Positions 13,585 to 41,240 of a DNA stretch of 64,000 nt are shown here, piece after piece. Every line of letters starts with the position of its first letter. The stretch's first letter is position 1. The notes under the pieces are model-generated. The model had not been told where the DNA came from. It searched no databases and worked only from the letters and a program-made list of their open reading frames with translations. The DNA lies in contig SOJW01000035.1 in assembly GCA_004375895.1 (NCBI GenBank), positions 42,264 through 106,263 on the forward strand. The letters run 5' to 3'. Origin of the DNA: Candidatus Stahliibacteriota bacterium (GTDB lineage Bacteria > Hydrothermota > Tepidihabitantia > B3-TA06). Made by a program: the position numbers and the translations under genes.

Positions 13585-13633
13585 GGAGTGCAACGAGCGC
13601 CTCGTTGCCGCAACAACACGGTTGTTGCACTCC
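13585..13633 (+). repeat. Structured repeat family 'GGAGTG-2 hairpins-CACTCC', copy 1
   Basis: GGAGTG-[CAACGAG cgc CTCGTTG]-ccg-[CAACAAC acg GTTGTTG]-CACTCC. Other copies at 31400, 33157 and 41192. Confidence 0.7.
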
Positions 13634-13659
13634 AAAGTCACGAGGGTAGAAAAAAATGA

Positions 13660-13750
13660 AACACGGAGATCACAGAGAACACGGAGAAAACCATATGAAT
13701 AATTATAATAATCCCCTCCTCTGTGTTCTCCGTGTGCTCTGTGGTTTTAA
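13660..13750 (+). repeat. Long imperfect inverted repeat (~25-bp arms, ~35-nt AT-rich loop) downstream of polA
   Basis: cacggagatcacagagaacacggag ... ctcctctgtgttctccgtgtgctctgtgg. Confidence 0.5.
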
Positions 13751-13756
13751 TACCCT

Positions 13757-14167
13757 ATGACCTGGACACCGCCTAAGACACCCTATCTCACGGTTGACTG
13801 CATCATCAGATACAAGCAAGGGATTGTGCTGATCCAGCGTAGGCATCCGCCCGAAGGCTGGGCCCTGCCCGGAGGATTCTGCGAGATCGGCGAGACGGTC
13901 GAGGACGCGGTGCGCCGGGAGGTGCGCGAGGAGACCGGGCTGGAGCTTGAGAACTTAAAGCAGTTCCGCGTCTACTCCGACCCAGCCCGCGACCCCCGCT
14001 TCCACACCGCCTCAGTGGTCTTTGCCGCCGACGGCATTGGTGTGTTACGGGGCGGAAGCGACGCAAAGGTTGCGAGAGTGTTTAAGTTGGATGAGCTGCC
14101 GGAAGAGATTTGTTTTGACCATCGAGAGATTATACAAGACTACATTGTCAATCTTTCATCTACGTGA
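13757..14167 (+). CDS. NUDIX hydrolase
   Basis: Nudix box GGFCEIGETVEDAVRREVREETGL. Confidence 0.8.
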   Translation: MTWTPPKTPYLTVDCIIRYKQGIVLIQRRHPPEGWALPGGFCEIGETVEDAVRREVREETGLELENLKQFRVYSDPARDPRFHTASVVFAADGIGVLRGGSDAKVARVFKLDELPEEICFDHREIIQDYIVNLSST

Positions 14168-14647
14168 GTCCTCCCTACCATAAGTTTTCGGGCTGACCTA
14201 AAGGTCAGCCCCTACAGGGGATTGCGCTACCCCTCCCCCTTCATCCCCCTCCACAAAGGGAGGGGGAAAACTCCCAGTAACGACACTGACACCTTTTACC
14301 CCTCCATCTCGATGGGGGAGGTTGGGAGGAGGTGAAGCCTCTTTCCACTCCACCTACCCCCTACCCTATGGGGCGCAGTAAAATTGGCGCCCCAAGGGGC
14401 ACGCTGTCCACCAAGGAGGGGGAATAATACACTCCTTCAGAGCCCTCCTTCAATAAGGGGACAATGTAGCGCAGGCTCAGCGTGCCCCTGTCGGGTGCTC
14501 CAGCCTGCGCTGATATATTATTAAACAGGCTAGAGAGCCTGTTCTACATTTTACATTCGCTGTAAGCGAAAAGGAGCATTAGAATCAGTTGACAGACCCC
14601 ATCTTATCCGTATCCTCATAAGCAAAAACAAACCATAAGGAGGAGAA

Positions 14648-14971
14648 TTGGCCATAACCATGGACGACTTCAAAAAGATTGACCTGCGTGTAGCTAAGAT
14701 TACCGAGGCCGAGAGGATTGAAGGAACCGATAAGCTCTTAAAGCTCAAGGTAACGCTCGGGGTCGAGGAGCGCCAGCTTGTGGCAGGAATAGCCCAGCAT
14801 TACTCTCCTGAAGAATTGGTGGGCAAGCAGCTTATCGTGGTTACGAACCTTGAGCCAGCGTTGATAAAAGGCGTGGAGTCTCAGGGTATGCTTCTGGCAA
14901 CGGTAAGCCAGGGCAGGGTGATCCTGGCAACCATGGACGCCGAAACAGAGCCCGGCTCCAAGATACTTTAG
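14648..14971 (+). CDS. tRNA-binding protein (CsaA/Trbp111, EMAP-II-like OB fold)
   Basis: DLRVAKITEAERIEGTDKLLKLKVTLG...LVGKQLIVVTNLEPALIKGVESQGMLLA. Confidence 0.8.
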   Translation: MAITMDDFKKIDLRVAKITEAERIEGTDKLLKLKVTLGVEERQLVAGIAQHYSPEELVGKQLIVVTNLEPALIKGVESQGMLLATVSQGRVILATMDAETEPGSKIL

Positions 14972-14972
14972 G

Positions 14973-15842
14973 ATGTTCGACACCCATACCCACCTTTGTC
15001 ATAAATCCTTCCGTAAGGATCGTGAGGAGGCGTTTGATAGGGCACTGGAAGCGGGCGTGAATCTCATGCTTGAGATTAGCTGGGACGTTCGCTCAAGCGA
15101 GGCAGCCATCCGGTTTGCCGAGGATCACGAAGGCGTGTGGGTGGCGGTAGGTTATCATCCACACGAGTCTCGTAACACCCGTACCCCTTCGGGGCATTCT
15201 CATAATTATTCGGAGCTTACGCTCCGCTCACAAGGAAATAACACCCGCCCCCCTTCGGGGGATTCTCATAATCAGCTTGAATCACAAGGAAATAACACAC
15301 CCAATTATCTGCAAAGGCTTGAAGAGTTAAGTAAACATCAAAAGGTCAAGGCGATAGGCGAGATCGGTCTTGACTACTACAGGGATCTATCGCCGCGGGA
15401 TGTACAGAAGCGGGTGTTTGCAGAGCAGATCGAGCTTGCCGATGAACTCAAGCTACCCATGGTGATCCACTGTCGTGACGCGATGGATGATGTTCTGCCG
15501 ATCGTTGCCGAGCAAGGTTACTACCGGGGCGTTTTTCACTCGATTTCTGCAGACTCGGAGCAGGCACAGAAGATTGTGGGGCTGGGATTCTATCTTGGCA
15601 TCAACGGGACGCTGACCTATGATAGCAAGAGGACCAAAAGCTGGTTGCCTCGGGTTCCGAAAGAGCGGTTGCTTATCGAGACCGACTGCCCCTACCTTGC
15701 GCCTGTCCCCTATCGTCGCGAGCGCAACGAACCCGCGTACGTAAGATACGTGGCCGAGGCGGTAGCCGGTGTCCTAGAGACATCGGTTGAAGAGATCGGA
15801 GATCTAACCGAGAAGAACGGGAAGGAGCTCTTCCTTGGCTAG
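14973..15842 (+). CDS. tatD: TatD-family metal-dependent hydrolase carrying a ~120-bp in-frame repeat-element insertion
   Basis: MFDTHTHLCH and GEIGLDYY motifs. A foreign 40-aa segment RNTRTPSGHSHNYSELTLRSQGNNTRPPSGDSHNQLESQGNNT sits at 15171-15305 and is encoded by the GTTACGG/hairpin element. Confidence 0.85.
   Translation: MFDTHTHLCHKSFRKDREEAFDRALEAGVNLMLEISWDVRSSEAAIRFAEDHEGVWVAVGYHPHESRNTRTPSGHSHNYSELTLRSQGNNTRPPSGDSHNQLESQGNNTPNYLQRLEELSKHQKVKAIGEIGLDYYRDLSPRDVQKRVFAEQIELADELKLPMVIHCRDAMDDVLPIVAEQGYYRGVFHSISADSEQAQKIVGLGFYLGINGTLTYDSKRTKSWLPRVPKERLLIETDCPYLAPVPYRRERNEPAYVRYVAEAVAGVLETSVEEIGDLTEKNGKELFLG
15171..15305 (+). repeat. GTTACGG/hairpin element inserted in frame in tatD, as two tandem units of 66 and 54 bp
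   Basis: Unit: AACACCCG..CCCCTTCGGGG(UUCG-type hairpin)CATTCTCATAAT..CGGAGCTTACGCTCCG..CACAAGGAAAT. About 95% identical to the reverse complement of 63851-63935. Confidence 0.8.
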
Positions 15843-16674
15843 AACCCGGATTGTTCACGTTCATCCGAAAAAGAGACTGGGACAGCACTTTCTGCGCAGA
15901 AAAGAGATAGCGCAGAGGATAGTGGACGCGCTTGAGGTGACCGAGAAAGACACGGTGGTAGAGGTCGGCGCTGGGACAGGCGAACTTACCCGGTTGATTA
16001 TAAAGCAAGCAGGTAAGGTGGTTGCGGTTGAGGTTGACGAGACCTGTTTCCCGACACTCCAGGTTCTTGCCGATCTCAATCACAATCTTGAGTTGTTTTT
16101 AGACGATGTGAGGAAATTGGATCTGTCTCATTATGCGTGTGTTACGGGTGTTACGGGTGGGTGTGTTACGGGTGTTACGGGTAAGGGTGTTACGGGTGTC
16201 CTCGGCAATCTCCCCTATCACCTCTCGGCAGAGATACTGTTCTGGCTGCTGGGACAGAGAAAGTATTGGCAGAGAGCGGTTCTTACGGTGCAGGCGGAGT
16301 TCGCGGCTCGCCTGGCAGCTGAGGTTGGCTCTCACGACTACTCGGCACTCTCGGTTATCGCCCAGACCTTTATCACTACCGAAAAGCTTTTCGACATCCC
16401 TGCCGAAGCCTTCGTACCGCCCCCCAAGGTGAAATCAACTACTATAAGAATACAGCCTATCGATAAAGTTGAGATCCCCCTATCTGAGGAGGACTTCATC
16501 AAGTTTGTCCGCTCGTGCTTTGCCCATCGCCGCAAGAGGCTTGCCAACAACCTCAAGATGATGGGTATACCCACTCCAGACAAGCTTTTAGAAGAACTGG
16601 GGCACTCGCCAACCGTCCGCCCCCAGGAACTCTCATCCCATGACTACATTCGGTTTATTAACGCTGCTCGTTAG
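15835..16674 (+). CDS. rsmA: 16S rRNA (adenine1518/1519-N6)-dimethyltransferase RsmA/KsgA with an in-frame 9-bp tandem-repeat insertion
   Basis: LGQHFLRRKEIAQRIVDAL, VVEVGAGTGELT, and GNLPY carrying an inserted CVTGVTGGCVTGVTGKGVTGV segment. Confidence 0.85.
   Translation: MARTRIVHVHPKKRLGQHFLRRKEIAQRIVDALEVTEKDTVVEVGAGTGELTRLIIKQAGKVVAVEVDETCFPTLQVLADLNHNLELFLDDVRKLDLSHYACVTGVTGGCVTGVTGKGVTGVLGNLPYHLSAEILFWLLGQRKYWQRAVLTVQAEFAARLAAEVGSHDYSALSVIAQTFITTEKLFDIPAEAFVPPPKVKSTTIRIQPIDKVEIPLSEEDFIKFVRSCFAHRRKRLANNLKMMGIPTPDKLLEELGHSPTVRPQELSSHDYIRFINAAR
16135..16200 (+). repeat. (GTGTTACGG)n, ~6 tandem 9-bp repeats in frame within rsmA
   Basis: gtgttacgggtgttacgggtgggtgtgttacgggtgttacgggtaagggtgttacggg. 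Confidence 0.85.
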
Positions 16675-18427
16675 CGCGTTCGGCTCGGACACGGTTATCG
16701 TCTACTCGTCCGGGTATAACAACATGCTGCAACGCGGGGTATGGAACAGCGTTTACTTTGAGCGTAAACTGGGAAAAGAACTCTCCTTAACCCTGAATGA
16801 GTGGTATTCAATAAGCTGGGACTCTCTATCCAAGGACCTTCGTCGCAGCGCGTATAACACCGTAGGTGTAATCTACAACCCTGCCCAGTGGCTCGCGATC
16901 AAAAGCGGACTCACCGGCTCTCGTTCACTGACGGAAGAAGCCGACGGCAGCCAGGGCTACACCCGGTACTCCTCCGAAGGTTTCATAAGAACCACAACGT
17001 CAACAGACCTCCTCTACTCCGATTATGAACTAAGATACGGCAAGGAACGTTCCGCCATCTCAGGGCCCGAAGCGGGATGGTCTATTGACGAGATAAAAAA
17101 GGACGCAGCCACCATAAAAATCCGTACAGATCCATGTACCCTGAGTATCTACCATCATCTGGATCGCCACACCACCTGGTCAGATGGCGGTGACACCCTG
17201 CAAGTAACGCTCGCACGTATCCCTTTCCTTAAAGGCTACCTCTTAAGCGGAACCGAGTTCGGCCGCCGCCGCACCAAAGGCTACTCAGACTACGAGGGAC
17301 TTGGGGCTAAGTTCTGGGTGAAGGATACGCTGAGAATTACCCCACATGTAGGGCTCTCTATCGGCGCTTCCTACATGCTGGATACGCTTACAAACAACCT
17401 GTGGAAGGATCTAACATACAGCGAGGAGGAGCGCAACCTGAGCGCACGCGTAAGTTATGCCCCATTCAAACGGACAAACCTCCAGATTGAGCTGAGAAAC
17501 GAACAAAACTTTCACGACCAGGTTGACGACTACTACGATGAAGAATCCTTTAAGCACTCCTTCACCGGCAGTATCTCGCACAACTTCTACAGACGTCCAG
17601 CGCAAGCGCGGAATATATGGGGCATGGCTGTCAACTTCATCTCACCCGGATCGATCCTCTTCTCTCACAGCTTATCACTTGAGCGCATCTTTACACCCGA
17701 CTCGGCCAACGCCCTTGATCGGGATAACTTCAAAGAGCGACTTAGCCTTTCAGCAACACTGAGGCCAGGGGAAAACCTCTCCACATACTTTACTCTGAGT
17801 CATTACATCCAGCGCACACACTACACGGACACAATCAACACAAGTTATGCCGGGAGTTCAAACGAACGCAGATCCAGCAACGCCACGTGGAATCTTAACC
17901 TTGAGGTTCCCCGCTACCTGGCTATATCAAACTCGGCAAACCTCTACTTTGATTGGACAAGATACTATAACGACTCCACCCTGAACAGGGCCGACAGAAC
18001 CTGGAAGGAGCAAATCTCTGTGAGCGTGTTCCCGCAAGCTGCGCTAGAGCCGGGTGTAAATTTGGGCTGGGAGCGTTACGAAAACTGGCGAGTGATCTCA
18101 GGCGCATTGGTGCGTAGGGGTCTTAAGGATGTATTTGAGCAACGTTACAGCATCTCTTTTGTCCAGAAACGCAAAGAGGAGGCGCCGAGATGGTGGTCGC
18201 AACCGTATTGGGAGCGGGAGTGGTTAAGAATCACAGGATTTGCAGGGATAAGGATGGAAATAACACCTGCCGAACCCCAGGGGTTGTGGCAAGAAAGCCG
18301 GTTTGCAGGGATAGAAATCTCGGCTTGTCCATGGCCCTATCTTTCATTAAACGGCAGGATAAAATTTACAAGGAGCAACTATGAAGTGCCTTTTGAGGCT
18401 TCTTGCTTCCTCAGCAGTTCTTTCTAG
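16640..18427 (+). CDS. Hypothetical outer-membrane beta-barrel protein
   Basis: Short signal peptide, abundant alternating aromatic/polar beta-strand pattern, C-terminal ...SSSF with terminal Phe. Start uncertain because it overlaps the rsmA end. Confidence 0.5.
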   Translation: MTTFGLLTLLVSAFGSDTVIVYSSGYNNMLQRGVWNSVYFERKLGKELSLTLNEWYSISWDSLSKDLRRSAYNTVGVIYNPAQWLAIKSGLTGSRSLTEEADGSQGYTRYSSEGFIRTTTSTDLLYSDYELRYGKERSAISGPEAGWSIDEIKKDAATIKIRTDPCTLSIYHHLDRHTTWSDGGDTLQVTLARIPFLKGYLLSGTEFGRRRTKGYSDYEGLGAKFWVKDTLRITPHVGLSIGASYMLDTLTNNLWKDLTYSEEERNLSARVSYAPFKRTNLQIELRNEQNFHDQVDDYYDEESFKHSFTGSISHNFYRRPAQARNIWGMAVNFISPGSILFSHSLSLERIFTPDSANALDRDNFKERLSLSATLRPGENLSTYFTLSHYIQRTHYTDTINTSYAGSSNERRSSNATWNLNLEVPRYLAISNSANLYFDWTRYYNDSTLNRADRTWKEQISVSVFPQAALEPGVNLGWERYENWRVISGALVRRGLKDVFEQRYSISFVQKRKEEAPRWWSQPYWEREWLRITGFAGIRMEITPAEPQGLWQESRFAGIEISACPWPYLSLNGRIKFTRSNYEVPFEASCFLSSSF

Positions 18428-18992
18428 TTTGCTGGCAGGATGCAACCTCTTTAATCCCGAAGAGTACGCTGAAGATCTCAACCCCGTGGACTCCATGGCC
18501 GTCTTCCGCAATCTAGTTGACGCCCACAACACACTTGACTACGAGGCGTTCCTTTTATGCCTGGACCCAGCCACCTTCCGCTTCGTTCCGAAAGACACTA
18601 CCCAGGGCACATACTATAAACCGTGGGGCTATGCGGATGAGGACACGTTGACCTCCACCATGTTCAAGGAATTCAAAACCGAACGTCAGATCCCTCCTCT
18701 CCTCCTTCAGGTAGACACGACCTACTTCTCAGCCACAGACACCCTCGCCTACCTGTGTGCAAACTACCTCCTGATTACGCCTCTGAAGGAGTATGACACC
18801 CTTGGCGGAGGATTAGAGTTGGAGATTCTAAAGCGTGGAAACTACTGGTACATATCAACCTGGAAGGACGTAGCAGGCGAAACCCTATTTGTGGAGCACG
18901 AGACAGAAGAAGGCGAGACTACAATAGATACAATCCCCCCGAAGATAACCGAGCATGACTGGAGCGACCTTAAGGTTTACTTCCGCATGTAG
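18381..18992 (+). CDS. Hypothetical lipoprotein
   Basis: Signal peptide with lipobox LLAGC. Confidence 0.5.
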   Translation: MKCLLRLLASSAVLSSLLAGCNLFNPEEYAEDLNPVDSMAVFRNLVDAHNTLDYEAFLLCLDPATFRFVPKDTTQGTYYKPWGYADEDTLTSTMFKEFKTERQIPPLLLQVDTTYFSATDTLAYLCANYLLITPLKEYDTLGGGLELEILKRGNYWYISTWKDVAGETLFVEHETEEGETTIDTIPPKITEHDWSDLKVYFRM

Positions 18993-19013
18993 GTCGGCAG
19001 GTAGTTGTAGAAG

Positions 19014-21840: not shown

Positions 21841-21878
21841 GGGGTCCCAGCGAAGTCACGAAGTGACTTCGTGGGGTG
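21841..21878 (+). repeat. Conserved-stem hairpin family GGGGTCCC..N11..GTGGGGTG, copy 1
   Basis: ggggtcccagcgaagtcacgaagtgacttcgtggggtg. Other copies at 22447 (inverted), 33353 and 43749. Confidence 0.65.
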
Positions 21879-22182
21879 AACACACGAAAAATCGGACTGA
21901 TTCAACAGCTTGTCATATTGCTAGATTAAGTGAGTGGCGGGATATCCACCGACATGGTGGTACAGGGATTTGAGCCTGTAGGAGCGACGCATGCGTCGCC
22001 CCTACGTCTATGCCGTATTCTTGGAGTATCTCGGCAGGATCTCGACGTGGTTCAGCGTAGGGGCCGACGTTCGCGGCCTTTGGCCACGCGCTTCGGGCTT
22101 GAGACTTGCCACTATCTGCATATACTGAACTCCGTTTCTTTGTTTCATGGGTGCATTCTCCCCGATGGGGCAATGAGTTGTC

Positions 22183-22225: not shown

Positions 22226-22296
22226 TGGGGGATCGTCTAATGGCAGGACGGCTGACTCTGGATCAGTTAATCGGGGTTCGAGTCCCTGTCCCCCAG
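22226..22296 (+). tRNA. tRNA-Gln (anticodon CUG)
   Basis: Acceptor TGGGGGA/TCCCCCA, anticodon stem GCTGA/TCAGT with loop CTCTGGA giving CUG. T-loop TTCGAGT, discriminator G. D-stem is short. Confidence 0.8.
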
Positions 22297-22384: not shown

Positions 22385-22447
22385 CGGAGGCTCGACCGTA
22401 AGGAGAGCGACCGAAGAGAGCTCCCATCCCTGTCCCCCAGGTTTTAC
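22385..22447 (+). repeat. Degenerate partial tRNA-Gln duplicate (3' half, including an exact 20-bp copy of the 3' end)
   Basis: gttaatcgg...ccctgtcccccaggtttta repeats tRNA positions ~40-71. Confidence 0.55.
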
Positions 22448-22655
22448 CCCACGAAGGTACTGCGTCCCTTCGTGGGGACCCCGAATAAATGCTCCTTTTG
22501 CCCGTAGGGCAAAGGAGCATGGGCAGGAAAGAGGACGGTCGTGTACCCGACTGGGACTAGGCATTCTTTTGAGGGCCGCGGTAGAATTACCTGATTTTTA
22601 ATGCCTATCCCCATTAGAACTTTACATTTTAGCTTGTCTTTCTGTTATATGGTTA

Positions 22656-30560: not shown

Positions 30561-31107
30561 TCTTCCATTTCTGCCAAAAACGCCATATCTCAGGCCGTTC
30601 CAGGAGCCGGGAAAGCTCCTTTATACGCGGATCAAGGTAGTCGAAATCAAGCCTTGATCCTTGCCTTGAAAGAATGGCTCTCACGTCGTCTGCATCCCTC
30701 TGTCTTTCTGATACTATCTTGGTGATAATAAGGTCTTCAGGCCTCGCAAACCTAACAGGCGTACCATGAATCTCAACGTCCACCGCTCGTTCGATGGCTT
30801 CCTTCTCAAAAGGCAGACTGCCGAAGATAAGATCTATACGTACGCCGCCTCTGGCCTGCATGGGTAAAACCGAAGTCTTTTTAACAAAATCTGCTGGATC
30901 AGAAATCAAAGGACTGCAGAGGTTACCCAGAAGCGAGACAATACGCGGCACCTGGGATACTGGAACCCGGATAGTTACGTCTATGTCCAGGGTAGCGCGC
31001 GGCTCACCCCACACCGCGTTGGCTATGCCGCCTATAATCATGTAAGGGATGCCACTCTCTTGCAGGAGTTGAGCGAGCCTGACCAGCGTTTCCTCAAGAG
31101 AACTCAT
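30529..31107 (-). CDS. Nucleotidyltransferase-fold protein (DUF2204/MNT-like small NTase)
   Basis: GIPYMIIGGIANAVWGEPRATLDIDVTI (GS/GG...D.D signature). Start overlaps the stop of the upstream small gene. Confidence 0.55.
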   Translation of the reverse strand: MSSLEETLVRLAQLLQESGIPYMIIGGIANAVWGEPRATLDIDVTIRVPVSQVPRIVSLLGNLCSPLISDPADFVKKTSVLPMQARGGVRIDLIFGSLPFEKEAIERAVDVEIHGTPVRFARPEDLIITKIVSERQRDADDVRAILSRQGSRLDFDYLDPRIKELSRLLERPEIWRFWQKWKNESLDHPPRR

Positions 31108-31355
31108 TATCTCGAACCTTTAAGAACCGCGAGTGCTGTGCGCATAGCGATGATACCCTTGAGTTTGGAGTCGAAGTCCCTTTTACGAGCCTGGAGCGGT
31201 ATAAGGTCGTAAAGCGCTCCGATAGCGGCCAACGCCTGGGCAGGAGACATTTCCACGGGATGTTCTGTCTCCCATTCGGCGAAGCGTTTTAGTCCAGCGG
31301 CCCGCTCAAGCAAACGGCGCTTGTATTCCTTTGCGTCGAGGTTAGATACGGCCAT
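31107..31355 (-). CDS. Small hypothetical protein (82 aa) translationally coupled to the nucleotidyltransferase
   Basis: Upstream partner in an apparent two-gene module. No HEPN Rx4-6H motif. Confidence 0.4.
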   Translation of the reverse strand: MAVSNLDAKEYKRRLLERAAGLKRFAEWETEHPVEMSPAQALAAIGALYDLIPLQARKRDFDSKLKGIIAMRTALAVLKGSR

Positions 31356-31399
31356 AGACTAACTATGCGGGGATTCAGCCGCTTGTCAAGCAGATTTAT

Positions 31400-31450
31400 G
31401 GAGTGCAATGACCGTGTCATTGCGAAACTGCAACAAGACGCTTGTTGTGA
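31400..31450 (+). repeat. Structured repeat family copy 2 (3' end degenerate)
   Basis: GGAGTG-[CAATGAC cgt GTCATTG]-cgaaactg-[CAACAAG acg CTTGTTG]. Lacks the closing CACTCC. Confidence 0.6.
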
Positions 31451-31651
31451 TCTGAAAAGGTCGAACCCGCAGGGTTCGCAATTGTTGAACGGACTAGAGA
31501 AAACGCGCAGACACGAGTGTCTTCGCTACATGCGTTGTTTATGAAAAGTCCCAGTCTGTGCAAACGGCCGTCCGAGGTCGTCTTACACCCCCTCTTTTAT
31601 TCTCCCCCATCAAGGGGGAGAAAATTAGATGCGAAGTTTCTTATGCGGTGC

Positions 31652-33031
31652 TTATGACAAATCAAACAGATATAGCTTTTCTTCGGTCATCTCACGGATA
31701 GCGTATGCCGGACCCTCGCGGCCTAACCCGGAGCCCTTCATCCCGCCGTAGGGCATAAGGTCAACCCGGAAGGTAGGAATCTCGTTGACCAGCACCCCGC
31801 CGGCGTCTATACCGTCGCAGGCGCGAAACGCCCTCTTTAGGTCGCGGGTGAAGACAGCACCCTGCAGCCCGTAGCAGGTGGCGTTGACCCGCTCGATTGC
31901 ATCCTCGAGGTCCTTGACTGGGTTGACGACAACCACCGGAGCAAAGGCTTCCATCTTGATGAGCTTGGCGTCCTCAGGGACTTTGGCGAGTATCCAAGGA
32001 CCGAGAACCGACCCCTCGCGCTTGCCTTCCAGTACGACTTCAGAGCCTCGAGATTTGGCCTCATCTATCCATGAAAGGATTCGATCGACCTCTTTTTTTT
32101 CGATCATGGGACCTAGTTCTGTCGACTCATCCAAAGGATCACCGGTCTTCAAAGTAGATACCTCGGACACCAGAAGGTCGAGGAATGGCTGGTAGACTTC
32201 CTCTTCCACGTAGACTCTTTGGGTTGAGATGCATACCTGGCCGGCAAGGGAGTAGCCACCGATGCGTATACGCTTGGCTGCGCGCTCGAGGTCACCATCT
32301 TCAAGGATCACCACCGCGGAGTTTGAGCCTAGCTCTAATGCGATCTTCTTGAGACCAACGTGACGGGTGATCTCCTCTCCTACCGCCTTGGAGCCGGTAA
32401 AGGTCACCATGCGGGGAACAGGTGAAGTGACTAATGCGTTGCCCACGGTTGAGCCTGGGCCGATCACCACCTGCAAAGCTTCTTTTGGGACTCCAGCTTC
32501 ATGGAGAGCTTCGACTAGCTTGATGCCGGAGAGCGGGGTAACCGATGCAGGCTTTAGCAGCGCGCTGCACCCGGCGGCCAATGCTGGACCCAGCTTGTGG
32601 GCGACGAGGTTTAAGGGAAAGTTGAAGGGCGTGATCGCTGCCACCACCCCGCACGGGACCCTGCGGTAGAAACCCTGCTTATTGGGATGATTGGCTGAAG
32701 AGAATGGAACCTCCTCGCCTGCCAGTTTCATCGCTTCGATTGCAGAGAGCCGGAGGGTATTAACGCATCTTGCCGCCTCCCCGGAGGCCTCACGCCACGT
32801 CTTGCCTACCTCGAGAACTAAGGTGCGGGCAAACTCCTCGGATCGCTCTTTTACGATGTCTGCAGCTTTGTTGAGTATCTCGGCCCGGCGCTGTTGAGTG
32901 ATGTCCCGCATCTTTACCAGGCCGCTTTGTGTTAAGGAGAGTTTTGCAGCGACAGAAGATTCACTATCCTGCTCCAGCTCGGCGATTACGGAATTGTTAT
33001 ATGGGTTAAATACCTTTAACTTCTCAGGCAT
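31652..33031 (-). CDS. NAD(P)-dependent aldehyde dehydrogenase
   Basis: ELGSNSAVVILEDGD and catalytic AGQVCISTQRVYV. Confidence 0.9.
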   Translation of the reverse strand: MPEKLKVFNPYNNSVIAELEQDSESSVAAKLSLTQSGLVKMRDITQQRRAEILNKAADIVKERSEEFARTLVLEVGKTWREASGEAARCVNTLRLSAIEAMKLAGEEVPFSSANHPNKQGFYRRVPCGVVAAITPFNFPLNLVAHKLGPALAAGCSALLKPASVTPLSGIKLVEALHEAGVPKEALQVVIGPGSTVGNALVTSPVPRMVTFTGSKAVGEEITRHVGLKKIALELGSNSAVVILEDGDLERAAKRIRIGGYSLAGQVCISTQRVYVEEEVYQPFLDLLVSEVSTLKTGDPLDESTELGPMIEKKEVDRILSWIDEAKSRGSEVVLEGKREGSVLGPWILAKVPEDAKLIKMEAFAPVVVVNPVKDLEDAIERVNATCYGLQGAVFTRDLKRAFRACDGIDAGGVLVNEIPTFRVDLMPYGGMKGSGLGREGPAYAIREMTEEKLYLFDLS

Positions 33032-33156
33032 GATTCTCCTCCTAAATCATTTCTGAAGAGTATATAGTCGCTCTCATAGGTGTCAAGAAGAAATCACCCC
33101 CACCCTACCCTCCCCCGTTAAGGGGAAGGATACACCTTTTTCCCCTCCTCGGGTTT

Positions 33157-33205
33157 GGAGTGCAACAACCGCGTTGTTGCAGCAACGAGACGCTCGTTGC
33201 ACTCC
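33157..33205 (+). repeat. Structured repeat family copy 3
   Basis: GGAGTG-[CAACAAC cgc GTTGTTG]-cag-[CAACGAG acg CTCGTTG]-CACTCC. Confidence 0.7.
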
Positions 33206-33305
33206 ATATTCTCATCTCAAAGCATAAAATAATATAGACCAGTCTGAGACTGGTCTATAATCTCTTTTCTCCGATCTTTTGCCGTTTGCGGCAAAGGGAG
33301 GATAT

Positions 33306-33390
33306 AGGGGGCCCCCAAGGTTTTACGAGGTAAAATCTTGGGGTGTAAATTCGGGGTCCCCGCGAGGGTATGAAGTAACCTCGTGGGGTG
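33306..33390 (+). repeat. Two tandem conserved-stem hairpins (GGGGGCCCCCAAGG..CTTGGGGTG and GGGGTCCCCGCGAGG..CCTCGTGGGGTG) abutting the gcvH stop
   Basis: Both have 11-nt loops. Matches the family at 21841, 22447 and 43749. Confidence 0.65.
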
Positions 33391-33810
33391 TTATTTCGCG
33401 TGCTTGGCGATCTCCGTCTTGAGCCAGGTGGCAGCCGCTTCGCCGTGCATCAGAGCGTCAACCTCAGCGGGATCGGCTGGTTTCATGGTAAATATCCAGC
33501 CCGCCCCGTAGGGGTCGGAGTTCACAAGGCTGGGATCGTCCTCCAGCTCGGAGTTCGTCTCAACAATCTCTCCGGCCACAGGTGCGTAGATCTTGCCCAT
33601 CCACTTGCCGGTCTCGTATGAGCCAATCACTTCATCTGCCTGGGCCTCAGAGGAGGTCTCAGGCAGTTCGATGAAGGAGAGCTCACCGGAAAGCTTCTGG
33701 CTGAAGTCGTTGAGGCCAACACGGATAACGTCGCCTTCCTTACGAACCCACATGTGTTCCTTGTGATAGTATAGTTCGTCGGGAAGATTGTATCCTTCTA
33801 TCTCCGCCAT
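33391..33810 (-). CDS. gcvH: Glycine-cleavage H-like lipoyl-carrier protein, stand-alone (LbpA-like candidate)
   Basis: HMWVRKEGDVIRVGL...ETGKWMGKIYAPVAGEIVETN, with the lipoyl-Lys in ETGKW. No gcvT or gcvP nearby. Confidence 0.85.
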   Translation of the reverse strand: MAEIEGYNLPDELYYHKEHMWVRKEGDVIRVGLNDFSQKLSGELSFIELPETSSEAQADEVIGSYETGKWMGKIYAPVAGEIVETNSELEDDPSLVNSDPYGAGWIFTMKPADPAEVDALMHGEAAATWLKTEIAKHAK

Positions 33811-33834
33811 CTTGCCTCCTTAAAGATTGCGATC

Positions 33835-34128
33835 TTACGATATGATGTGCTTTGCTTCTTCGATGAGTGATGTTAACCCATCGTAGTTGACTGTTTTTCC
33901 CTCCGGCGCGGTAAGGCCGCGAGCCGCCAGATCCTCAGCAAGAAACCGGACGGTAACGCCGGCCGATTCCATCTCGGAGAGTTTCCGAGAGAGTTCTTTC
34001 GGCCCCTGCACTGCAAGCACCGCATCCTGGGCAAAGCAGATGGTGTCGCCTCGCTTGGCCAGACGGGCAGCCAGCTGCCACGCCGTGCGCTCAAAGGTAG
34101 AGCGGGTTACGAGATAAAGATTCTCCAT
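33835..34128 (-). CDS. DsrH/TusB-like sulfur-relay protein
   Basis: 97 aa. Position and size match the third gene of a dsrEFH/tusDCB triad. Confidence 0.6.
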   Translation of the reverse strand: MENLYLVTRSTFERTAWQLAARLAKRGDTICFAQDAVLAVQGPKELSRKLSEMESAGVTVRFLAEDLAARGLTAPEGKTVNYDGLTSLIEEAKHIIS

Positions 34129-34496: not shown

Positions 34497-34498
34497 GA

Positions 34499-34849: not shown

Positions 34850-34873
34850 CTATCCATCAGGGTTGAAAGTCCT

Positions 34874-35104: not shown

Positions 35105-35130
35105 TTCTGTTCTCCCTCCTACAAACAGAT

Positions 35131-35526
35131 CTAGGTTGCCTCTTTGGGGGGATCGAACTCATCCAAAGCCTGCATCAGGTATCCTATGTATTCAAAAACC
35201 GGCCCGCCGCCCATGGCAAGTGCGATGTTGGCCGCATCCAGGATCTCGGCGCGCGTACACCCCACCTGGACGCAGATCTGGGTATGCAGGTTGATGCAGG
35301 GGCGGCAGTGCTGGACCAGAACTATCGCCAGTTGCATCAGCTCCTTGTACTTCGTGGGTACCGTGCTTTCTTCCTTGGTCTTGCGCCAGAACTGCATGAA
35401 TGCGGCAGCTGCATCACTCGCCTCTCTTCTGTATCTTGCCTGAGCCTTGTTGATCTGGCTCTGTTCTGATTCTTTGGAAAGGTGTGTGTTACGGGTGTGG
35501 GTGTTACTGGGGGTCACGACGGCCAC
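35131..35526 (-). CDS. Carboxymuconolactone-decarboxylase/AhpD-like protein; N-terminus encoded by the GTTACGG repeat
   Basis: CMD-like core ...LVQHCRPCINLH. N-terminal VTPSNTHTRNTH is encoded by the repeat at 35481-35515, so the true start is uncertain. Confidence 0.55.
   Translation of the reverse strand: MAVVTPSNTHTRNTHLSKESEQSQINKAQARYRREASDAAAAFMQFWRKTKEESTVPTKYKELMQLAIVLVQHCRPCINLHTQICVQVGCTRAEILDAANIALAMGGGPVFEYIGYLMQALDEFDPPKEAT
35481..35515 (-). repeat. GTTACGG-type repeat within the 5' end of the AhpD-like ORF
   Basis: ggtgtgtgttacgggtgtgggtgttactggg on the plus strand. Read on the coding strand it gives T-R-N-T codons, as in tatD and the glycosyltransferase. Confidence 0.7.
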
Positions 35527-36636: not shown

Positions 36637-37255
36637 CTTTGCTTCCCTCAGGTTTAGTTGTAGCTCCTGCGTCGGCATCGGTGGATGCACTGCCAGCCTC
36701 TTTTGCTTCGCTGGAGTATAGGTACAGACCGGTGGCCTTGAAGATGGTCTTTATGGGATCGGGTGATTCGGTAAGTTCGGGCAGTTCTATCTTGGCCCGC
36801 TTCTTGTTGACGAACGCATCCGCTTCATACAGTCTGCCGTGTCCTTGAATTAAATCTATCTGTGCGGTGAACGCGGGATGGATGTAGCCGTTCTTCACGG
36901 CAAGGTTCTTCAAAGCGTTCATCATCTCGGTGATACGCACGTCCTGTGGACAGCGCTCGTGGCAGGCATAGCAGGTCGAGCAGAGCCAGACGAACTCGGA
37001 TGCCAGGACCTGTTCCTTCATACCCAGCAACGCCATGTGGATAATGCGTCGGGGGTTGAAGGTCTCCTCGATTGAGCGGACCGGACAGGATGCGGTGCAG
37101 GTTCCGCACGCATAGCACCGGGTGATGAACTCCCCCGAAGGCTCGGCCTGAATCTCGTATTTGAAGTTGGGGTCTAATTCATCAAATTTGATCACTTTCG
37201 GTTCCTTGGCCTTGGTGACCTCATCAACCGCTTCCGCGTCTTGGTTTTCGTTCAT
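36629..37255 (-). CDS. hdrC: Heterodisulfide reductase subunit C-like (2x[4Fe-4S] ferredoxin)
   Basis: CYACGTCTASCPV and CSTCYACHERCPQ. Confidence 0.8.
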   Translation of the reverse strand: MNENQDAEAVDEVTKAKEPKVIKFDELDPNFKYEIQAEPSGEFITRCYACGTCTASCPVRSIEETFNPRRIIHMALLGMKEQVLASEFVWLCSTCYACHERCPQDVRITEMMNALKNLAVKNGYIHPAFTAQIDLIQGHGRLYEADAFVNKKRAKIELPELTESPDPIKTIFKATGLYLYSSEAKEAGSASTDADAGATTKPEGSKDE

Positions 37256-37289
37256 GACCTTATCTTCTTCCAAAATTTCTCCACAATCT

Positions 37290-38162: not shown

Positions 38163-38373
38163 TAGGGCTGATTATAGGAAAATGAGCATAGATGTCAATG
38201 AGGAAGAGTCCTTAAGTCAGGTTTGAGTCCTACTCGTCAGGTTTGAATGCAATTCGGCGCATTTTTTGCGCGAAATTTGACGGTTTTGGGGGAATGGAAG
38301 GCCGGATAATGTTTCGGAAACACATATTGACAATAGAATATACTTCCTTACACTATTCTTAGAAGGAGGTTTT

Positions 38374-39021
38374 ATGCAAAAGAAAATACACCTCATCACC
38401 CTCTCACTTATCCTTATCGGAGGGATATGGATGACCCGCTGCGTATCCCCTTACTACGGCACGGCAAGGATAGAGCCGGGATGGCAGCTTGATACCGGTC
38501 TAGGACTGCATACCACCCTGATTCCGGTGCTTGACGGTGGTGACCCCGTTTATGGTGTCGGCATACGCTGCGACGGTGAAATAGGTTACGGTTTGGATAA
38601 GTACGTAAAACCCTACGCGAGAGCTGCGCTGGGCCTTAACACAGCCTACATAGGATACGCGGACATTGGTTTAGGCCTTCAAGTGGCTCTGCCGGTATGG
38701 ATATTCACCCCTGCGGTAAAACTTGAGATCAACTCCACTTGGATACAGCCCACCTTTTCCCCGGTCGTTCTATTAGGAATTGGCAAAAGTGAGTGGGTTA
38801 CCCTTGGGGCTAAAACCTATTTTTTCCCCTTCGCTGATTCGAACTACCCCAGATTTCTGGACGTATTTACCACCGTCCACATCTCTCCCCGCTGGTCAAT
38901 ATTCGCTGGTGCCGAGATTAACTCCTTCATTGATACCTTCGAAGACGGCAACGGCTACCCCTTCTTCACGGTGGGGGCTGGTTACAAGTTCCCGCCCTTC
39001 CGAGGCAAAACAAGGATTTGA
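38374..39021 (+). CDS. Hypothetical small outer-membrane protein
   Basis: Signal peptide and beta-strand pattern. Confidence 0.45.
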   Translation: MQKKIHLITLSLILIGGIWMTRCVSPYYGTARIEPGWQLDTGLGLHTTLIPVLDGGDPVYGVGIRCDGEIGYGLDKYVKPYARAALGLNTAYIGYADIGLGLQVALPVWIFTPAVKLEINSTWIQPTFSPVVLLGIGKSEWVTLGAKTYFFPFADSNYPRFLDVFTTVHISPRWSIFAGAEINSFIDTFEDGNGYPFFTVGAGYKFPPFRGKTRI

Positions 39022-39159
39022 GGATTTGAGCAAGGTAGTGGCGACTCAGGGCCTGCCCCTTGAGATGTTGTACATCTCATAGGGTATGAGTCGCCACTAC
39101 AGATTCCGCGTAATCTGCGGTTTTCATTGCTCCTTTTGGGCGTAGCTCAAAAGGAGCAT

Positions 39160-39738
39160 CTACCAAACGTACCGCAAGCCTATGCCTACTCCGGGCGAGG
39201 CGAAGAAGTAGGGTTCATTGTAGTAATCCCTGCCATAGTAAGACCGCGAAGGCCGTGAATAGAAGCCAGCCTGAAGCTCTGGGGTAACGGAAAGCCACCT
39301 GTCCTTGCCCATCTTGAAGAGGAGCCAGTCAGCTCCCACAATAAAGGCGGTGGAAAGACCCCATTTTGTCTCCAGTGACCACCAGTCCCAGTAATCTTCA
39401 TACTCATAGTCATCCCAGTCTTCAAACCACCCTTTAACATACCATGCGCCCACCCCCGCACCCAGATAAATCCTGAATCGGTTATCCGGGTTCACGATCT
39501 TAAGGATGCGCAGCGCACCGGCCATGTGGTAGGTGGAAGAGCCGGTCTGAGGGTTATCAAACCTTCCGCGGGCCACGATCTCAAAACCAAAGCCCTTCTC
39601 TGAAAGAAGCCGATAGGCAAGGCCTTGTCCAAGGAAGTCGGCCTGCATGCCGATACCCTGTTCAGCAAGGAGGGGCGTGCCAAAGCCGCCAAGCAGCAAA
39701 GAAACCACCATCCCCTTGAGTGCAAGGGTTCTGAACAT
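39160..39738 (-). CDS. Small outer-membrane beta-barrel protein (OmpA-like 8-strand barrel type)
   Basis: Signal peptide, ends ...GLRYVW. Confidence 0.55.
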   Translation of the reverse strand: MFRTLALKGMVVSLLLGGFGTPLLAEQGIGMQADFLGQGLAYRLLSEKGFGFEIVARGRFDNPQTGSSTYHMAGALRILKIVNPDNRFRIYLGAGVGAWYVKGWFEDWDDYEYEDYWDWWSLETKWGLSTAFIVGADWLLFKMGKDRWLSVTPELQAGFYSRPSRSYYGRDYYNEPYFFASPGVGIGLRYVW

Positions 39739-39746
39739 CTCCCCAC

Positions 39747-40307
39747 CTACCAGTTATAGCTTATCCCGAAACCAATATCAGGGAACCAGAAGCGAGTTTC
39801 TGCTTCCTCGAAGGTCCCGTAGGCACTGGAACTCATATCGCGTCTGTAAAGGAATCCGGATTCGAGCTCGATCCGGAACCTGTCAAGACCTTGATCCTTG
39901 TCTTTGACAAGGATCTGCATAAGGATCTGCAAAGGAGCTATACCGGCTCCCACGTAGATACGTCCACCCAATCCAATATAGCTGCTGGATCCGTAGATCT
40001 CGCCCGTGCTGCCGAAACCCAGCCCGACGTAGGGTGAAAACCACTCGTCCTGTGAGAACATCACCCCGCCCCTGAGGCCGGCGCTGTAGAATATATCCTG
40101 ACCGCCTTCATCGTAGGTAAACACCCCGATACCGTGAGGGGCCACGAACAAAGCAGCCTGCTCCTTTAGCGGGACAAACAGGCGGAACTCAAGCCCGCCC
40201 GAGACCGGATCAACCCTGCCGCCGAATCCGAAACGATAGGATGCCGCGGCAACCGCAGGGATAAGCAATGTGCACACAACGAGTGCAATGGTTATTCTTT
40301 TCAACAT
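39747..40307 (-). CDS. Small outer-membrane beta-barrel protein (paralog-like)
   Basis: Signal peptide MLKRITIALVVCTLLIPAVAAA, ends ...GISYNW. Confidence 0.55.
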   Translation of the reverse strand: MLKRITIALVVCTLLIPAVAAASYRFGFGGRVDPVSGGLEFRLFVPLKEQAALFVAPHGIGVFTYDEGGQDIFYSAGLRGGVMFSQDEWFSPYVGLGFGSTGEIYGSSSYIGLGGRIYVGAGIAPLQILMQILVKDKDQGLDRFRIELESGFLYRRDMSSSAYGTFEEAETRFWFPDIGFGISYNW

Positions 40308-40441
40308 GCACGCCTCCTTTTCAATAAGGTAACTATAAGGCTGAACCTGGAAGTTGTCAATACCCCCATCCCGCGCAACCACCAGAGGGGAATCAAAGCA
40401 AGGAGTCTACAAGAAAATACGTCGTGTTTCTTTGGGGTAAA

Positions 40442-41146
40442 TTAAAACCTGAACGCAGTGGAAAGCCCGAACTCCGGATAGAACACTACCCCGTTGGAGG
40501 TCGAACCGAAAAGGATGTTCCAATCCAACCCGGTTCCAAAAAGCCAGCTGAAGCCTTCGGTGTGCACCGCCGCAACTGCGAATCCGAAGTTTAATCTCAT
40601 CCCCATACGGTGCTCCTTCACGTAGTCAATAGCCATCCTGTAGTCGTTGACCAGTATCTTGATGTCCTCAAGCGTGAGGGTATTTATGTACTCCTCGACC
40701 TTAGCCTGGGTTGCCGCCGGGATGAACCAGTTGTTTGTAAACTGGAATCCAAGCGGGAAAAGCACCCTGTCGTTGGCCGCTGAAAAGGATTTCTGCAACC
40801 CCCACGCCCACTGCACGTGCACGTAGGGAATATCCTGAGTGGCGTCGATATCCAAAGGATAGTAAGGGATGTTCTCGATGTGTCCTTTTGCGGTGTAGTT
40901 CTTGTAGTGGACGTTTAGATCTACTGCAAATCCAATGGAGCGCTCGTCCTCAAGCGAAAGTCCGATGTGGAAGAATCCCGGCGGTGGGATGCCTGGCCTT
41001 GAGACCTCCACATGACACCCGGAGTTGGGGTTGGTATAGTCCGCGGAATCAGCACCGATATTGTAAAGCCCTGCGCTGTATCCCAGATCCAGCCCGAACT
41101 GCCAGGGGGCGGAAATAAGAACTAACGATACAATCAAAGCATTCAT
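40442..41146 (-). CDS. Outer-membrane beta-barrel protein
   Basis: Signal peptide, ends ...STAFRF. Confidence 0.5.
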   Translation of the reverse strand: MNALIVSLVLISAPWQFGLDLGYSAGLYNIGADSADYTNPNSGCHVEVSRPGIPPPGFFHIGLSLEDERSIGFAVDLNVHYKNYTAKGHIENIPYYPLDIDATQDIPYVHVQWAWGLQKSFSAANDRVLFPLGFQFTNNWFIPAATQAKVEEYINTLTLEDIKILVNDYRMAIDYVKEHRMGMRLNFGFAVAAVHTEGFSWLFGTGLDWNILFGSTSNGVVFYPEFGLSTAFRF

Positions 41147-41191
41147 AATCGCTCCCTCCGTGTTTGGGAGAGATTATACGGTGAATTATTT

Positions 41192-41240
41192 GGAGTGCAA
41201 CAACCGTGTTGTTGCCGCAATGACATGGTCATTGCACTCC
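41192..41240 (+). repeat. Structured repeat family copy 4
   Basis: GGAGTG-[CAACAAC cgt GTTGTTG]-ccg-[CAATGAC atg GTCATTG]-CACTCC. Confidence 0.7.

What the first reader, a model, noticed from the sequence alone, without database searches (positions are those of the whole stretch)
13585..41240. Structured three-way-junction repeat family (GGAGTG-hairpin-hairpin-CACTCC) with compensatory stem variation
There are four ~49-bp copies, at 13585, 31400, 33157 and 41192. Each has an outer 6-10-bp closing stem (GGAGTGCAA / TTGCACTCC) around two 7-bp hairpins. The hairpin arm sequences differ between copies (CAACGAG/CTCGTTG, CAACAAC/GTTGTTG, CAATGAC/GTCATTG, CAACAAG/CTTGTTG) but each stays perfectly self-complementary. 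That pattern indicates selection on structure, in RNA or cruciform DNA, rather than on sequence. All copies lie in short spacers between convergent or co-directional genes. The element could be a REP-like or terminator module, a protein-binding site or a small structured RNA.
Basis: seen in the sequence. Interest (0 to 1): 0.75.

Follow-up and report, generated by a model that had tools for sequence, protein, structure and literature searches.

The report
REP doublets tied to a RAYT transposase
The four "three-way-junction" repeats are pairs of small palindromic DNA units (REPs) of the kind spread by a domesticated single-strand-DNA transposase (RAYT). This is a known type of bacterial repeat, seen here in an uncultured Stahlbacteria/WOR-3 genome with an unusual head sequence.

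Summary
Three intact 49-nt copies (13585, 33157, 41192) and one decayed copy (31400) are the only ones in the window. Each is a doublet of two inverted units. A unit is a head T[AT]TGGAGT plus a 19-nt hairpin (GCAA-N4-loop3-N4-TTGC). The "outer stem" is simply the two inverted heads.

Across 47 distinct copies from other genomes and metagenomes, the eight variable stem pairs covary strongly: 99.4% paired and 108 double changes, against about 30 in shuffles.

In relatives, the same units flank a ~180-aa gene in 10 gene contexts. That gene is a REP-associated tyrosine transposase (NCBIfam NF047646, 108-113 bits against a cutoff of 80; closest solved structure E. coli TnpAREP). One unit sits in frame inside such a gene.

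Close relatives of the window show copy 1 inverted, copy 3 absent and copy 4 reduced to half. That is the behaviour of a dynamic repeat, not of a conserved RNA gene. There is no Rfam match and no terminator U-tract.

Verdict: this is a REP/REPIN-like family with a non-canonical GGAGT head, a new member of a known kind. "Structured RNA" and "structural closing stem" do not. The RAYT of this genome itself was not located.

The parts
13582..13636 (+). REP doublet, copy 1, intact. It reads TAT-GGAGT (13585-13589), hairpin GCAACGAG-CGC-CTCGTTGC (13590-13608), linker C (13609), hairpin GCAACAAC-ACG-GTTGTTGC (13610-13628), then ACTCC-AAA. It lies 54 nt after the polA stop and 124 nt before the NUDIX start.
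   Evidence: 76.5 bits. A relative at 86-94% identity over the aligned syntenic blocks (L032) keeps the element at this site, inverted together with a 32-nt flank.
31397..31448 (+). REP doublet, copy 2, decayed. The first unit is intact: TAT-GGAGT plus GCAATGAC-CGT-GTCATTGC (31405-31423). A 6-nt linker GAAACT follows, then a second hairpin GCAACAAG-ACG-CTTGTTGT (31430-31448). The 3' head ACTCC has been replaced by GATCT.
   Evidence: 42.7 bits. A promoter-like site at 31389-31362 on the minus strand lies just beside it.
33154..33208 (-). REP doublet, copy 3, intact. It is the reverse complement of copy 1 (46/49). On the minus strand it reads TAT-GGAGT-GCAACGAG-CGT-CTCGTTGC-T-GCAACAAC-GCG-GTTGTTGC-ACTCC-AAA. 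It lies between gcvH (stop at 33391) and the aldehyde dehydrogenase gene (start at 33031).
   Evidence: 75.8 bits. It sits after a terminator-like hairpin (33259-33233, minus strand) and before a promoter-like site (33086-33059). The doublet is absent from the shorter orthologous spacer of TA06 B3_TA06.
41189..41243 (-). REP doublet, copy 4, intact. On the minus strand it reads TAT-GGAGT-GCAATGAC-CAT-GTCATTGC-G-GCAACAAC-ACG-GTTGTTGC-ACTCC-AAA. It lies 82 nt after the stop of the gltD-like gene and 46 nt before the next gene's start.
   Evidence: 77.4 bits. In TA06 B3_TA06 only the second unit is present at this site, and synteny breaks exactly at the junction between the two units.

Best explanation
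The four elements are REP doublets (REPIN/BIME-like) belonging to a RAYT-associated repeat family of Candidatus Stahlbacteria/WOR-3 and neighbouring uncultured lineages.

Anatomy (shown):
- The unit is a conserved head, T[AT]TGGAGT, followed by a perfect 8-bp hairpin.
- The hairpin has a fixed foot (GCAA/TTGC), a free 4-bp top and a 3-nt loop.
- Two units lie tail to tail in inverted orientation, 1-3 nt apart. A single strand therefore folds into a T shape whose outer stem is just the two heads.

Association (shown in relatives, not in this genome): the same units flank a ~180-aa HUH/Y1 transposase of the RAYT type.

Mechanism (inferred from E. coli TnpAREP and IS608 biochemistry):
- The RAYT binds each hairpin on single-stranded DNA, for example at replication forks.
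- It reads the head as a guide-like sequence and the loop as a specific contact.
- It cleaves nearby and so copies, moves or rearranges units and doublets.
- Only copies that still form the hairpin stay substrates. That keeps arms complementary while their sequence drifts.
- The two units keep the same loop but different stems. This also stops the doublet from being one long perfect palindrome.

Any effect on neighbouring mRNAs (3' end protection, weak termination) would be secondary and is untested.
For: 1. Association with the transposase.
- In L014 and L010, from two different MAGs, two doublets bracket a 178/179-aa ORF.
- That ORF hits Pfam Y1_Tnp above its cutoff and NCBIfam NF047646 "REP-associated tyrosine transposase" at 108 and 113 bits against a cutoff of 80.
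- Its best solved relative is E. coli TnpAREP, 4ER8, with E = 2e-7 across the HUH and Y motifs.
- NHYH and Y-I-H-x-N-P-V-K-H-G are invariant in nine homologues.
- Eight further gene contexts of homologues at 44-60% identity to the L014 protein (L061, L062/63, L065-L071) all carry GGAG[TC]-headed hairpins within about 100 nt.
- These include the classical arrangement of a single unit, then the gene, then an inverted single unit (L062, L069), and arrays of units (L065, L066, L068).
- One homologue has no flanking units but carries a unit inserted in frame between its HUH and Y motifs. Quentin et al. 2018 (PMC6006769) describe this trait for tnpAREP genes.

2. Structure.
- In 47 distinct copies, the eight pairs left free by the search pattern all show double changes.
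- There are 108 double-change cells against 30.2 +/- 4.6 in shuffles, and 99.4% of cells are paired.
- The alternative single long hairpin shows no covariation.
- DNA parameters give the T shape as the minimum-energy fold.

3. The unit, not the junction, is the module.
- Single units with one head exist.
- Differing heads do not compensate, in two loci (L066, L067).
- Loops read head-first are alike in the two units of a doublet: 2.06 of 3 positions against 1.20 +/- 0.12 in shuffles, with 0 of 2000 shuffles reaching it.

4. Dynamics between close relatives.
- Copy 1 is inverted in L032.
- Copy 3 is missing from TA06 B3_TA06.
- Copy 4 is reduced there to one unit, with a synteny break at the unit junction.
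- "Double-foot" single hairpins occur elsewhere in that locus.

5. All copies are extragenic, at about 1 per 16 kb.
Against: - No RAYT gene lies in the 64-kb window (tblastn), and the RAYT of this genome was not located. For the 1-nt-linker subfamily seen in the window, the link therefore rests on relatives whose units have 2-15-nt linkers.
- The canonical REP head GT[AG]G is absent.
- No biochemical or transposition evidence exists for this family.
- The missing copy 3 in the relative is part of a ~230-nt indel, not a clean empty site, so insertion cannot be told from deletion.
- A crude orientation bias exists (25 against 10 in co-directional spacers). G.T outnumbers A.C mismatches 6 to 2 on one strand. 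Both leave room for a strand-specific layer, either RNA or one DNA strand.
Confidence: 0.85

Rival explanations
1. A structured RNA element is the selected entity. It would be a cis-acting 3'-UTR module, a terminator or stabiliser, or a small RNA, folding as a three-way junction.
For: - All window copies lie downstream of genes in co-directional spacers.
- The three intact copies read TAT..AAA on the sense strand of their neighbours.
- Across loci, crude ORF calls give 25 sense against 10 antisense.
- G.T wobbles outnumber A.C by 6 to 2 on that strand.
- Covariation is strong.
Against: - No Rfam family matches, even at E up to 10.
- With RNA parameters the window copies fold into an extended hairpin, not the covarying T shape.
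- There is no U-run after the element, and copy 3 lies beyond a separate terminator-like hairpin and next to a promoter-like site.
- The element is inverted, absent or halved at orthologous sites in relatives whose aligned syntenic blocks are about 83-94% identical.
- The same units flank, and in one case interrupt, a DNA transposase gene.
Confidence: 0.07
2. A miniature inverted-repeat element (MITE) derived from a DDE-type insertion sequence. GGAGTGCAA/TTGCACTCC would be its terminal inverted repeats.
For: The ends are inverted repeats, the element is small and dispersed, and copies differ between relatives.
Against: - There is no target-site duplication; the flanks are TAT and AAA, not direct repeats.
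- Single units with one "terminus" are common.
- The internal hairpins covary, which MITE interiors need not do.
- The recurrent neighbouring gene is a Y1/HUH RAYT, not a DDE transposase.
- No copies were found in viral contigs.
Confidence: 0.02
3. A double-stranded DNA binding site for a host regulator or nucleoid protein. The palindromes would reflect a dimeric protein rather than hairpin formation.
For: The heads and the TTGC-N-GCAA centre are conserved in sequence. E. coli REPs are known to bind IHF and gyrase (background cited in PMC2817692).
Against: - A duplex-binding protein gives no reason for the free 4-bp stem tops to stay self-complementary while changing.
- The neighbouring genes are unrelated housekeeping genes.
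- The sites are not conserved at orthologous positions.
Confidence: 0.04

Closest known systems
REP / BIME / REPIN elements with their RAYT (TnpAREP), e.g. E. coli REP-Y/Z with YafM and Pseudomonas fluorescens REPINs (PMC2817692, PMC3116915, PMC6006769)
   Same: - Each unit is a short extragenic palindrome with a conserved 5' head at the hairpin foot.
- Two unit subtypes (TAT-head and TTT-head) resemble E. coli Y and Z.
- Inverted doublets are the main dispersed form.
- The cognate ~180-aa HUH/Y1 gene is flanked by the units (a REPtron).
- Units are occasionally inserted in frame in the RAYT gene.
- "Double-foot" derivatives occur.
- Copies sit in spacers downstream of genes.
   Different: - The head is T[AT]TGGAGT, not GT[AG]G. 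GTGG arises only in the 4 of 67 copies that begin TGTGGAGT.
- The hairpins are perfect, with 8 bp and a 3-nt loop, and are not GC-rich or bulged.
- The doublet is very compact, with a 1-3 nt linker, so it folds as a T rather than as one long REPIN hairpin.
- The two units keep different stems.
- The hosts are uncultured Stahlbacteria/WOR-3, TA06, Cloacimonadota and similar MAGs rather than Proteobacteria or Cyanobacteria.
TnpAY1 subclass 2.8 of Quentin et al. 2018 (PMC6006769)
   Same: The key motifs match the published signature NHYH / YIHYNP. The N-terminus is proline-containing (HxPPH). Some members carry a REP insertion.
   Different: Subclass 2.8 was described from 8 cyanobacterial proteins flanked by long canonical GT[AG]G REPs. 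Membership was judged here by motifs only, not by phylogeny.
IS200/IS605 transposons (IS608 TnpA)
   Same: Both use a Y1 HUH enzyme that recognises subterminal DNA hairpins on one strand. In L014 and L010 the doublets on both sides of the gene have the same orientation, like the LE and RE hairpins of these transposons.
   Different: The protein scores far below the IS200 model cutoff (18-20 bits against 55). There is no tnpB. The dispersed copies are gene-less 49-nt elements.
T-shaped inverted terminal repeats of adeno-associated virus
   Same: The geometry is the same: an outer stem enclosing two small internal palindromes, found in two "flip/flop" orders, and processed by an HUH enzyme (my own background knowledge).
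   Different: This is a resemblance of shape only. AAV repeats are replicon ends of 145 nt. Here the elements are chromosomal, interspersed and 49 nt long. No homology was tested.

Membership tests
REP / REPIN (RAYT-associated repetitive extragenic palindromes) | A short palindromic unit able to form a stem-loop as single-stranded DNA | tested here: met
   With DNA parameters the fold gives two 8-bp hairpins, at -18 to -20 kcal/mol and z about -6. 99.4% of cells are paired across 47 copies, with 8 covarying pairs.
REP / REPIN (RAYT-associated repetitive extragenic palindromes) | Many copies per genome, confined to extragenic space | tested here: inconclusive
   There are 4 copies in 64 kb, all intergenic. 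Two other MAGs hold 9 and 13 exact-core copies. The whole genome of the window's organism was not available for a count.
REP / REPIN (RAYT-associated repetitive extragenic palindromes) | A conserved GT[AG]G head at the 5' foot of the hairpin (canonical REPs; PMC2817692, PMC6006769) | tested here: not met
   The head is T[AT]TGGAGT in nearly all copies. It is therefore not a canonical GT[AG]G REP. Published atypical REP classes also lack this head (subclass 2.6 and class 3 in PMC6006769).
REP / REPIN (RAYT-associated repetitive extragenic palindromes) | The cognate RAYT gene is flanked by the same units (REPtron) | tested here: met
   This is met in relatives: L010, L014, L061, L062/63 and L065-L071. 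It is not shown for the window's own genome, since no RAYT lies in the window.
REP / REPIN (RAYT-associated repetitive extragenic palindromes) | Units arranged as inverted doublets that behave as the dispersed element | tested here: met
   67 doublets with fixed 1-3 nt linkers were found across genomes. Single units are rarer.
REP / REPIN (RAYT-associated repetitive extragenic palindromes) | Units are bound and cleaved by the RAYT, and are mobile | not testable with these tools
   Only indirect evidence exists: inversion, absence and half-copies at orthologous sites, and an in-frame insertion in a RAYT gene.
RAYT / TnpAREP (NCBIfam NF047646) | A score above the curated cutoff, with HUH and Y---NP motifs | tested here: met
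   The proteins score 108.2 and 113.2 bits against a cutoff of 80. NHYH and YIH[YFW]NPVKHG are invariant. The best PDB hit is 4ER8, TnpAREP. This applies to proteins of related loci, not to any window gene.
Rfam structured RNA families | A match at or above a family's gathering score | tested here: not met
   Only two tRNAs match in the window. At E up to 10 the elements give only miRNA-precursor hairpin noise, 20 bits at most against cutoffs of 62 or more.
Intrinsic (Rho-independent) terminator | A GC-rich hairpin followed by a U-run | tested here: not met
   The elements are followed by AAA or ATA on either strand. The scan of 31000-34000, which covers copies 2 and 3, did not call them, whereas a separate hairpin at 33233-33259 was called.
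MITE of a DDE insertion sequence | Terminal inverted repeats plus a target-site duplication and a parent IS | tested here: not met
   The flanks TAT and AAA are not direct repeats. One-headed single units exist. The associated gene is a Y1 transposase.

The most novel reading that the evidence does not exclude
The compact T-shaped doublet, rather than the single hairpin, could be the true substrate. A RAYT dimer would engage the two arms of one three-way DNA junction: same loop, deliberately different stems, and the two heads paired. This would be a REPIN architecture and recognition mode not described for the E. coli or Pseudomonas systems. It would be shared across several uncultured phyla through a GGAGT-head RAYT clade. 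The same junction might also serve on the RNA level as an orientation-tolerant 3'-end protector.
Probability: 0.15. Interest if true: 0.5.

Novelty: new member of a known kind. Interest (0 to 1): 0.3.

Why it matters
It extends REP/RAYT systems to Candidatus Stahlbacteria/WOR-3 and neighbouring candidate phyla. It also defines a clean, easily searched REP family: a GGAGT head, a GCAA/TTGC foot and a 3-nt loop, with abundant natural compensatory variation.

That variation makes it a convenient test set for three questions:
- which hairpin features a RAYT reads (head, loop, stem shape);
- why the two units of a doublet keep different stems;
- whether REP-RAYT pairs are inherited vertically in uncultured lineages.

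For annotation, it warns that strong covariation in a short intergenic repeat need not mean an RNA gene. Hairpins selected on single-stranded DNA give the same signal.

Tried and rejected
1. My first genome-collection scan used a 2-nt linker by miscount, giving a 50-nt pattern. It did, however, uncover the sister subfamily that led to the RAYT.

2. Viral contigs gave no copy, so a phage origin was dropped.

3. The extended single-hairpin fold is the RNA minimum-energy structure of the window copies. I tested it on the alignment and rejected it, because its covariation was no better than shuffles.

4. Terminator and promoter scans did not call the elements.

5. Rfam at gathering and at E-value thresholds gave nothing relevant.

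6. A search for the RAYT of the window's own lineage did not succeed.
- tblastn of window and loci found none.
- A second protein search with the GC-rich homologue P0007 and look-ups of P0010, P0026, P0143 and P0144 found more RAYTs with GGAGT-headed units.

7. Strand-of-function tests were indecisive. G.T against A.C mismatches were 6 to 2, and gene-relative orientation from crude ORF calls was 25 to 10.

8. The literal sequence search of the paper library returned only unrelated primers.

9. The 15-bit CM hit at 52922-52976 is coding sequence, not an element.


Full report
**Observation**

Reading the four sites confirms three intact 49-nt copies, at 13585-13633, 33157-33205 and 41192-41240, and one decayed copy at 31400-31448. 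The anatomy is:

GGAGT | GCAA-N4-loop3-N4-TTGC | 1 nt | GCAA-N4-loop3-N4-TTGC | ACTCC

Conserved flanks give T[AT]T-GGAGT ... ACTCC-A[AT]A.

- The head-plus-foot pattern occurs 7 times against 2.1 expected.
- The hairpin pattern occurs 7 times against 0.19 expected.
- A covariance model built later finds only these four sites in the window with filters off. The next hit, at 15 bits, is ordinary coding sequence.
- As single-stranded DNA, the intact copies fold into the T shape at -18 to -20 kcal/mol, z about -6.
- The window copies are not independent witnesses of compensation. Copy 3 is copy 1 reversed (46/49), and the hairpins are four modules in different combinations.

**Context**

The neighbours are housekeeping genes: polA and NUDIX; aldehyde dehydrogenase and a nucleotidyltransferase; gcvH and aldehyde dehydrogenase; a gltD-like gene and an unknown gene. 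Exact protein look-ups place the window in a MAG named Candidatus Stahlbacteria bacterium (WOR-3 group). Its close relatives include "candidate division TA06 bacterium B3_TA06".

**More copies**

A pattern scan of species-representative genomes used a 2-nt linker by my miscount. A metagenome scan with a 1-3 nt linker followed. Together with the window they gave 67 doublets. They come from MAGs labelled WOR-3, Cloacimonadota, Bacteroidetes and "bacterium", and from sediment and subsurface metagenomes. None came from viral contigs.

The pattern fixed the heads and the GCAA/TTGC feet but left the four top pairs and the loop of each hairpin free. On 47 distinct sequences (alignment A2):

- All eight free pairs show changes on both sides.
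- There are 108 such cells against 30.2 +/- 4.6 in shuffles.
- 99.4% of cells are paired.
- Every slid control collapses.

So the claim that hairpins are kept by selection is sound. The outer five pairs and the feet are invariant by construction and say nothing.

The alternative fold is one long hairpin. It is the RNA minimum-energy structure of the window copies, but it has no covariation support.

**What it is**

In L014 and L010, from two different MAGs, two doublets bracket a 178/179-aa ORF. The evidence on that ORF is:

- Pfam Y1_Tnp, above its cutoff.
- NCBIfam NF047646 "REP-associated tyrosine transposase", 108 and 113 bits against a cutoff of 80. It fails the IS200 model.
- Its best solved relative is E. 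coli TnpAREP bound to REP DNA (4ER8), aligned across the HUH and tyrosine motifs.
- NHYH and YIHxNPVKHG are invariant in nine homologues.

I then fetched the contexts of eleven homologues at 44-62% identity. DNA was returned for ten, giving nine further gene contexts.

- Eight contexts carry GGAG[TC]-headed hairpins next to the gene.
  - L061 has a doublet.
  - L062/63 and L069 have a single unit, then the gene, then an inverted single unit.
  - L065, L066 and L068 have arrays of units.
  - L067 and L070 have doublets with 2-5-nt linkers.
  - L071 keeps the same head on a different hairpin foot.
- The ninth context, L064, has no flanking units. [quoted passage not shown] Quentin et al. 2018 describe this peculiarity for tnpAREP genes (PMC6006769).

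This is the REPtron arrangement that defines REP-RAYT systems (PMC2817692; PMC6006769).

**The junction reinterpreted**

Single units exist, and each carries a head on one side only. In the two loci where the two heads differ (L067 GGAGC/ACTCC, L066 GGAGT/AGTCC), they do not compensate. The "closing stem" is therefore two inverted copies of a sequence-conserved head. This head is analogous to the GT[AG]G guide-like head of canonical REPs.

The two units of a doublet are subtypes, with TAT-head and TTT-head, as with E. coli Y and Z. Read head-first, their loops are alike: 2.06 of 3 positions against 1.20 +/- 0.12 in shuffles. Their variable stems differ.

I infer that the enzyme reads the same head and loop on either strand. 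I also infer that different stems keep the doublet from being one long perfect palindrome.

**Dynamics**

L032 is a relative at 86-94% identity over the aligned syntenic blocks, covering window 11698-18904. It keeps copy 1 between polA and NUDIX, but inverted together with a 32-nt flank.

In TA06 B3_TA06 (L072, aligned syntenic blocks about 83-94% identical):

- The gcvH-aldehyde dehydrogenase spacer is 128 nt instead of 359 nt and lacks the doublet.
- The copy-4 site keeps only the second unit.
- Synteny breaks exactly at the junction of the units, where 1.2 kb holding an extra gene is inserted.
- "Double-foot" single hairpins occur elsewhere in that locus.

This is what a recombinogenic or mobile repeat looks like. 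A conserved RNA gene would not behave this way.

**RNA readings**

- Rfam gives nothing at gathering or permissive thresholds.
- There is no T-run after the elements.
- Copy 3 lies beyond a separate terminator-like hairpin and just before a promoter-like site.
- Crude ORF-based orientation counts (25 sense, 10 antisense, 7 convergent, 4 divergent) do not exclude a secondary strand-specific role, and neither does the 6 to 2 excess of G.T over A.C. Neither observation establishes such a role.

**Mechanism, and what is inferred**

Shown:
- the anatomy;
- the covariation;
- the RAYT association in relatives;
- the instability between relatives.

Inferred from E. coli TnpAREP and IS608 (PMC6006769 and references therein; PMC3479197 abstract):
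- binding of each hairpin on single-stranded DNA;
- use of the head as a guide;
- cleavage nearby;
- copying or rearranging of units and doublets;
- purifying selection acting through substrate competence.

Not shown:
- a RAYT in this very genome;
- any enzymatic activity;
- any host-level effect.

**Comparison and novelty**

The system works like, and by gene association belongs with, REP/REPIN-RAYT systems. It fails one feature of canonical REPs, the GT[AG]G head. Published atypical classes fail it as well. The protein motifs (NHYH, YIHYNP) match subclass 2.8 of Quentin et al. 2018, but I did not test this by phylogeny.

I rate it a new member of a known kind. It is a new REP family with a GGAGT head, very compact T-forming doublets and hosts in uncultured phyla. 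Interest is modest (0.3). The main value is as a well-resolved example, and as a caution that covariation in a short intergenic repeat can come from DNA-level selection.

Noticed in passing
window 21841-21886 (+), 22446-22490 (-), 33308-33353 (+), 33353-33398 (+), 43750-43795 (+), 57400-57445 (-); also L029, L044, L055-L058, L072 12596-12633 and 21184-21220: A second hairpin repeat family has a head GGGGT followed by CCCC-N10-loop3-N10-GGGG-T[AG]. The inner arms differ between copies but stay complementary. A G.T wobble at the fifth pair (CCCCG/TGGGG) is common on the head strand. It looks like another REP-like family of single units. It co-occurs with the GGAGT doublets in the same lineage, and one copy overlaps the gcvH stop codon.
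   Followed up: partly
window 13549-13580, 13655-13750, 16134-16196, 35485-35510, 43674-43750, 48531-48567, 57619-57644, 59975-60003, 63914-63939: Many spacers hold short-period tandem repeats of 8-11 nt, such as CACAGATTA/CACCGATTT, CACGGAGAA, GTTACGGGT and AAAAGGTGGTC. Some occur as inverted pairs forming long hairpins (13655-13690 with 13718-13750). The relative L032 has a different repeat (GGAAGATT)n at the same place. Their origin and role are unknown.
   Followed up: no
window 13540-13637 versus L032 6022-6113: Between two close relatives, a ~95-nt segment is inverted relative to polA and NUDIX. It comprises the REP doublet plus the 32-nt flank AACCACAGATTACACCGATTTCACGGATTAAG. The window also has the matching arm end TCTGTGGTT at 13752-13760. 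This suggests flipping between flanking inverted repeats.
   Followed up: partly
L064 3360-3400 (protein P0006): [quoted passage not shown] It forms part of an insertion of about 24 residues, of which it encodes GQNHRFCTPKN.
   Followed up: yes
L072 11410-12652 versus window 41216-41307: In TA06 B3_TA06, an extra 1.2 kb with a 286-aa gene of unknown function sits exactly where the two units of window copy 4 join. Only the second unit remains there.
   Followed up: partly
window 3967-5016 and 5165-6247; also 25-924 versus 1968-3053: There are tandem paralogous genes. Blocks at 4123-4985 repeat at 5366-6222 with 75-87% identity, and 220-458 repeats at 2499-2722. The promoter-like upstream stretch at 982-1036 is repeated at 6307-6361.
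   Followed up: no
window 6547-6618 and 22226-22296: Two tRNA genes lie on the plus strand. They are the only Rfam matches at gathering score in the window.
   Followed up: no
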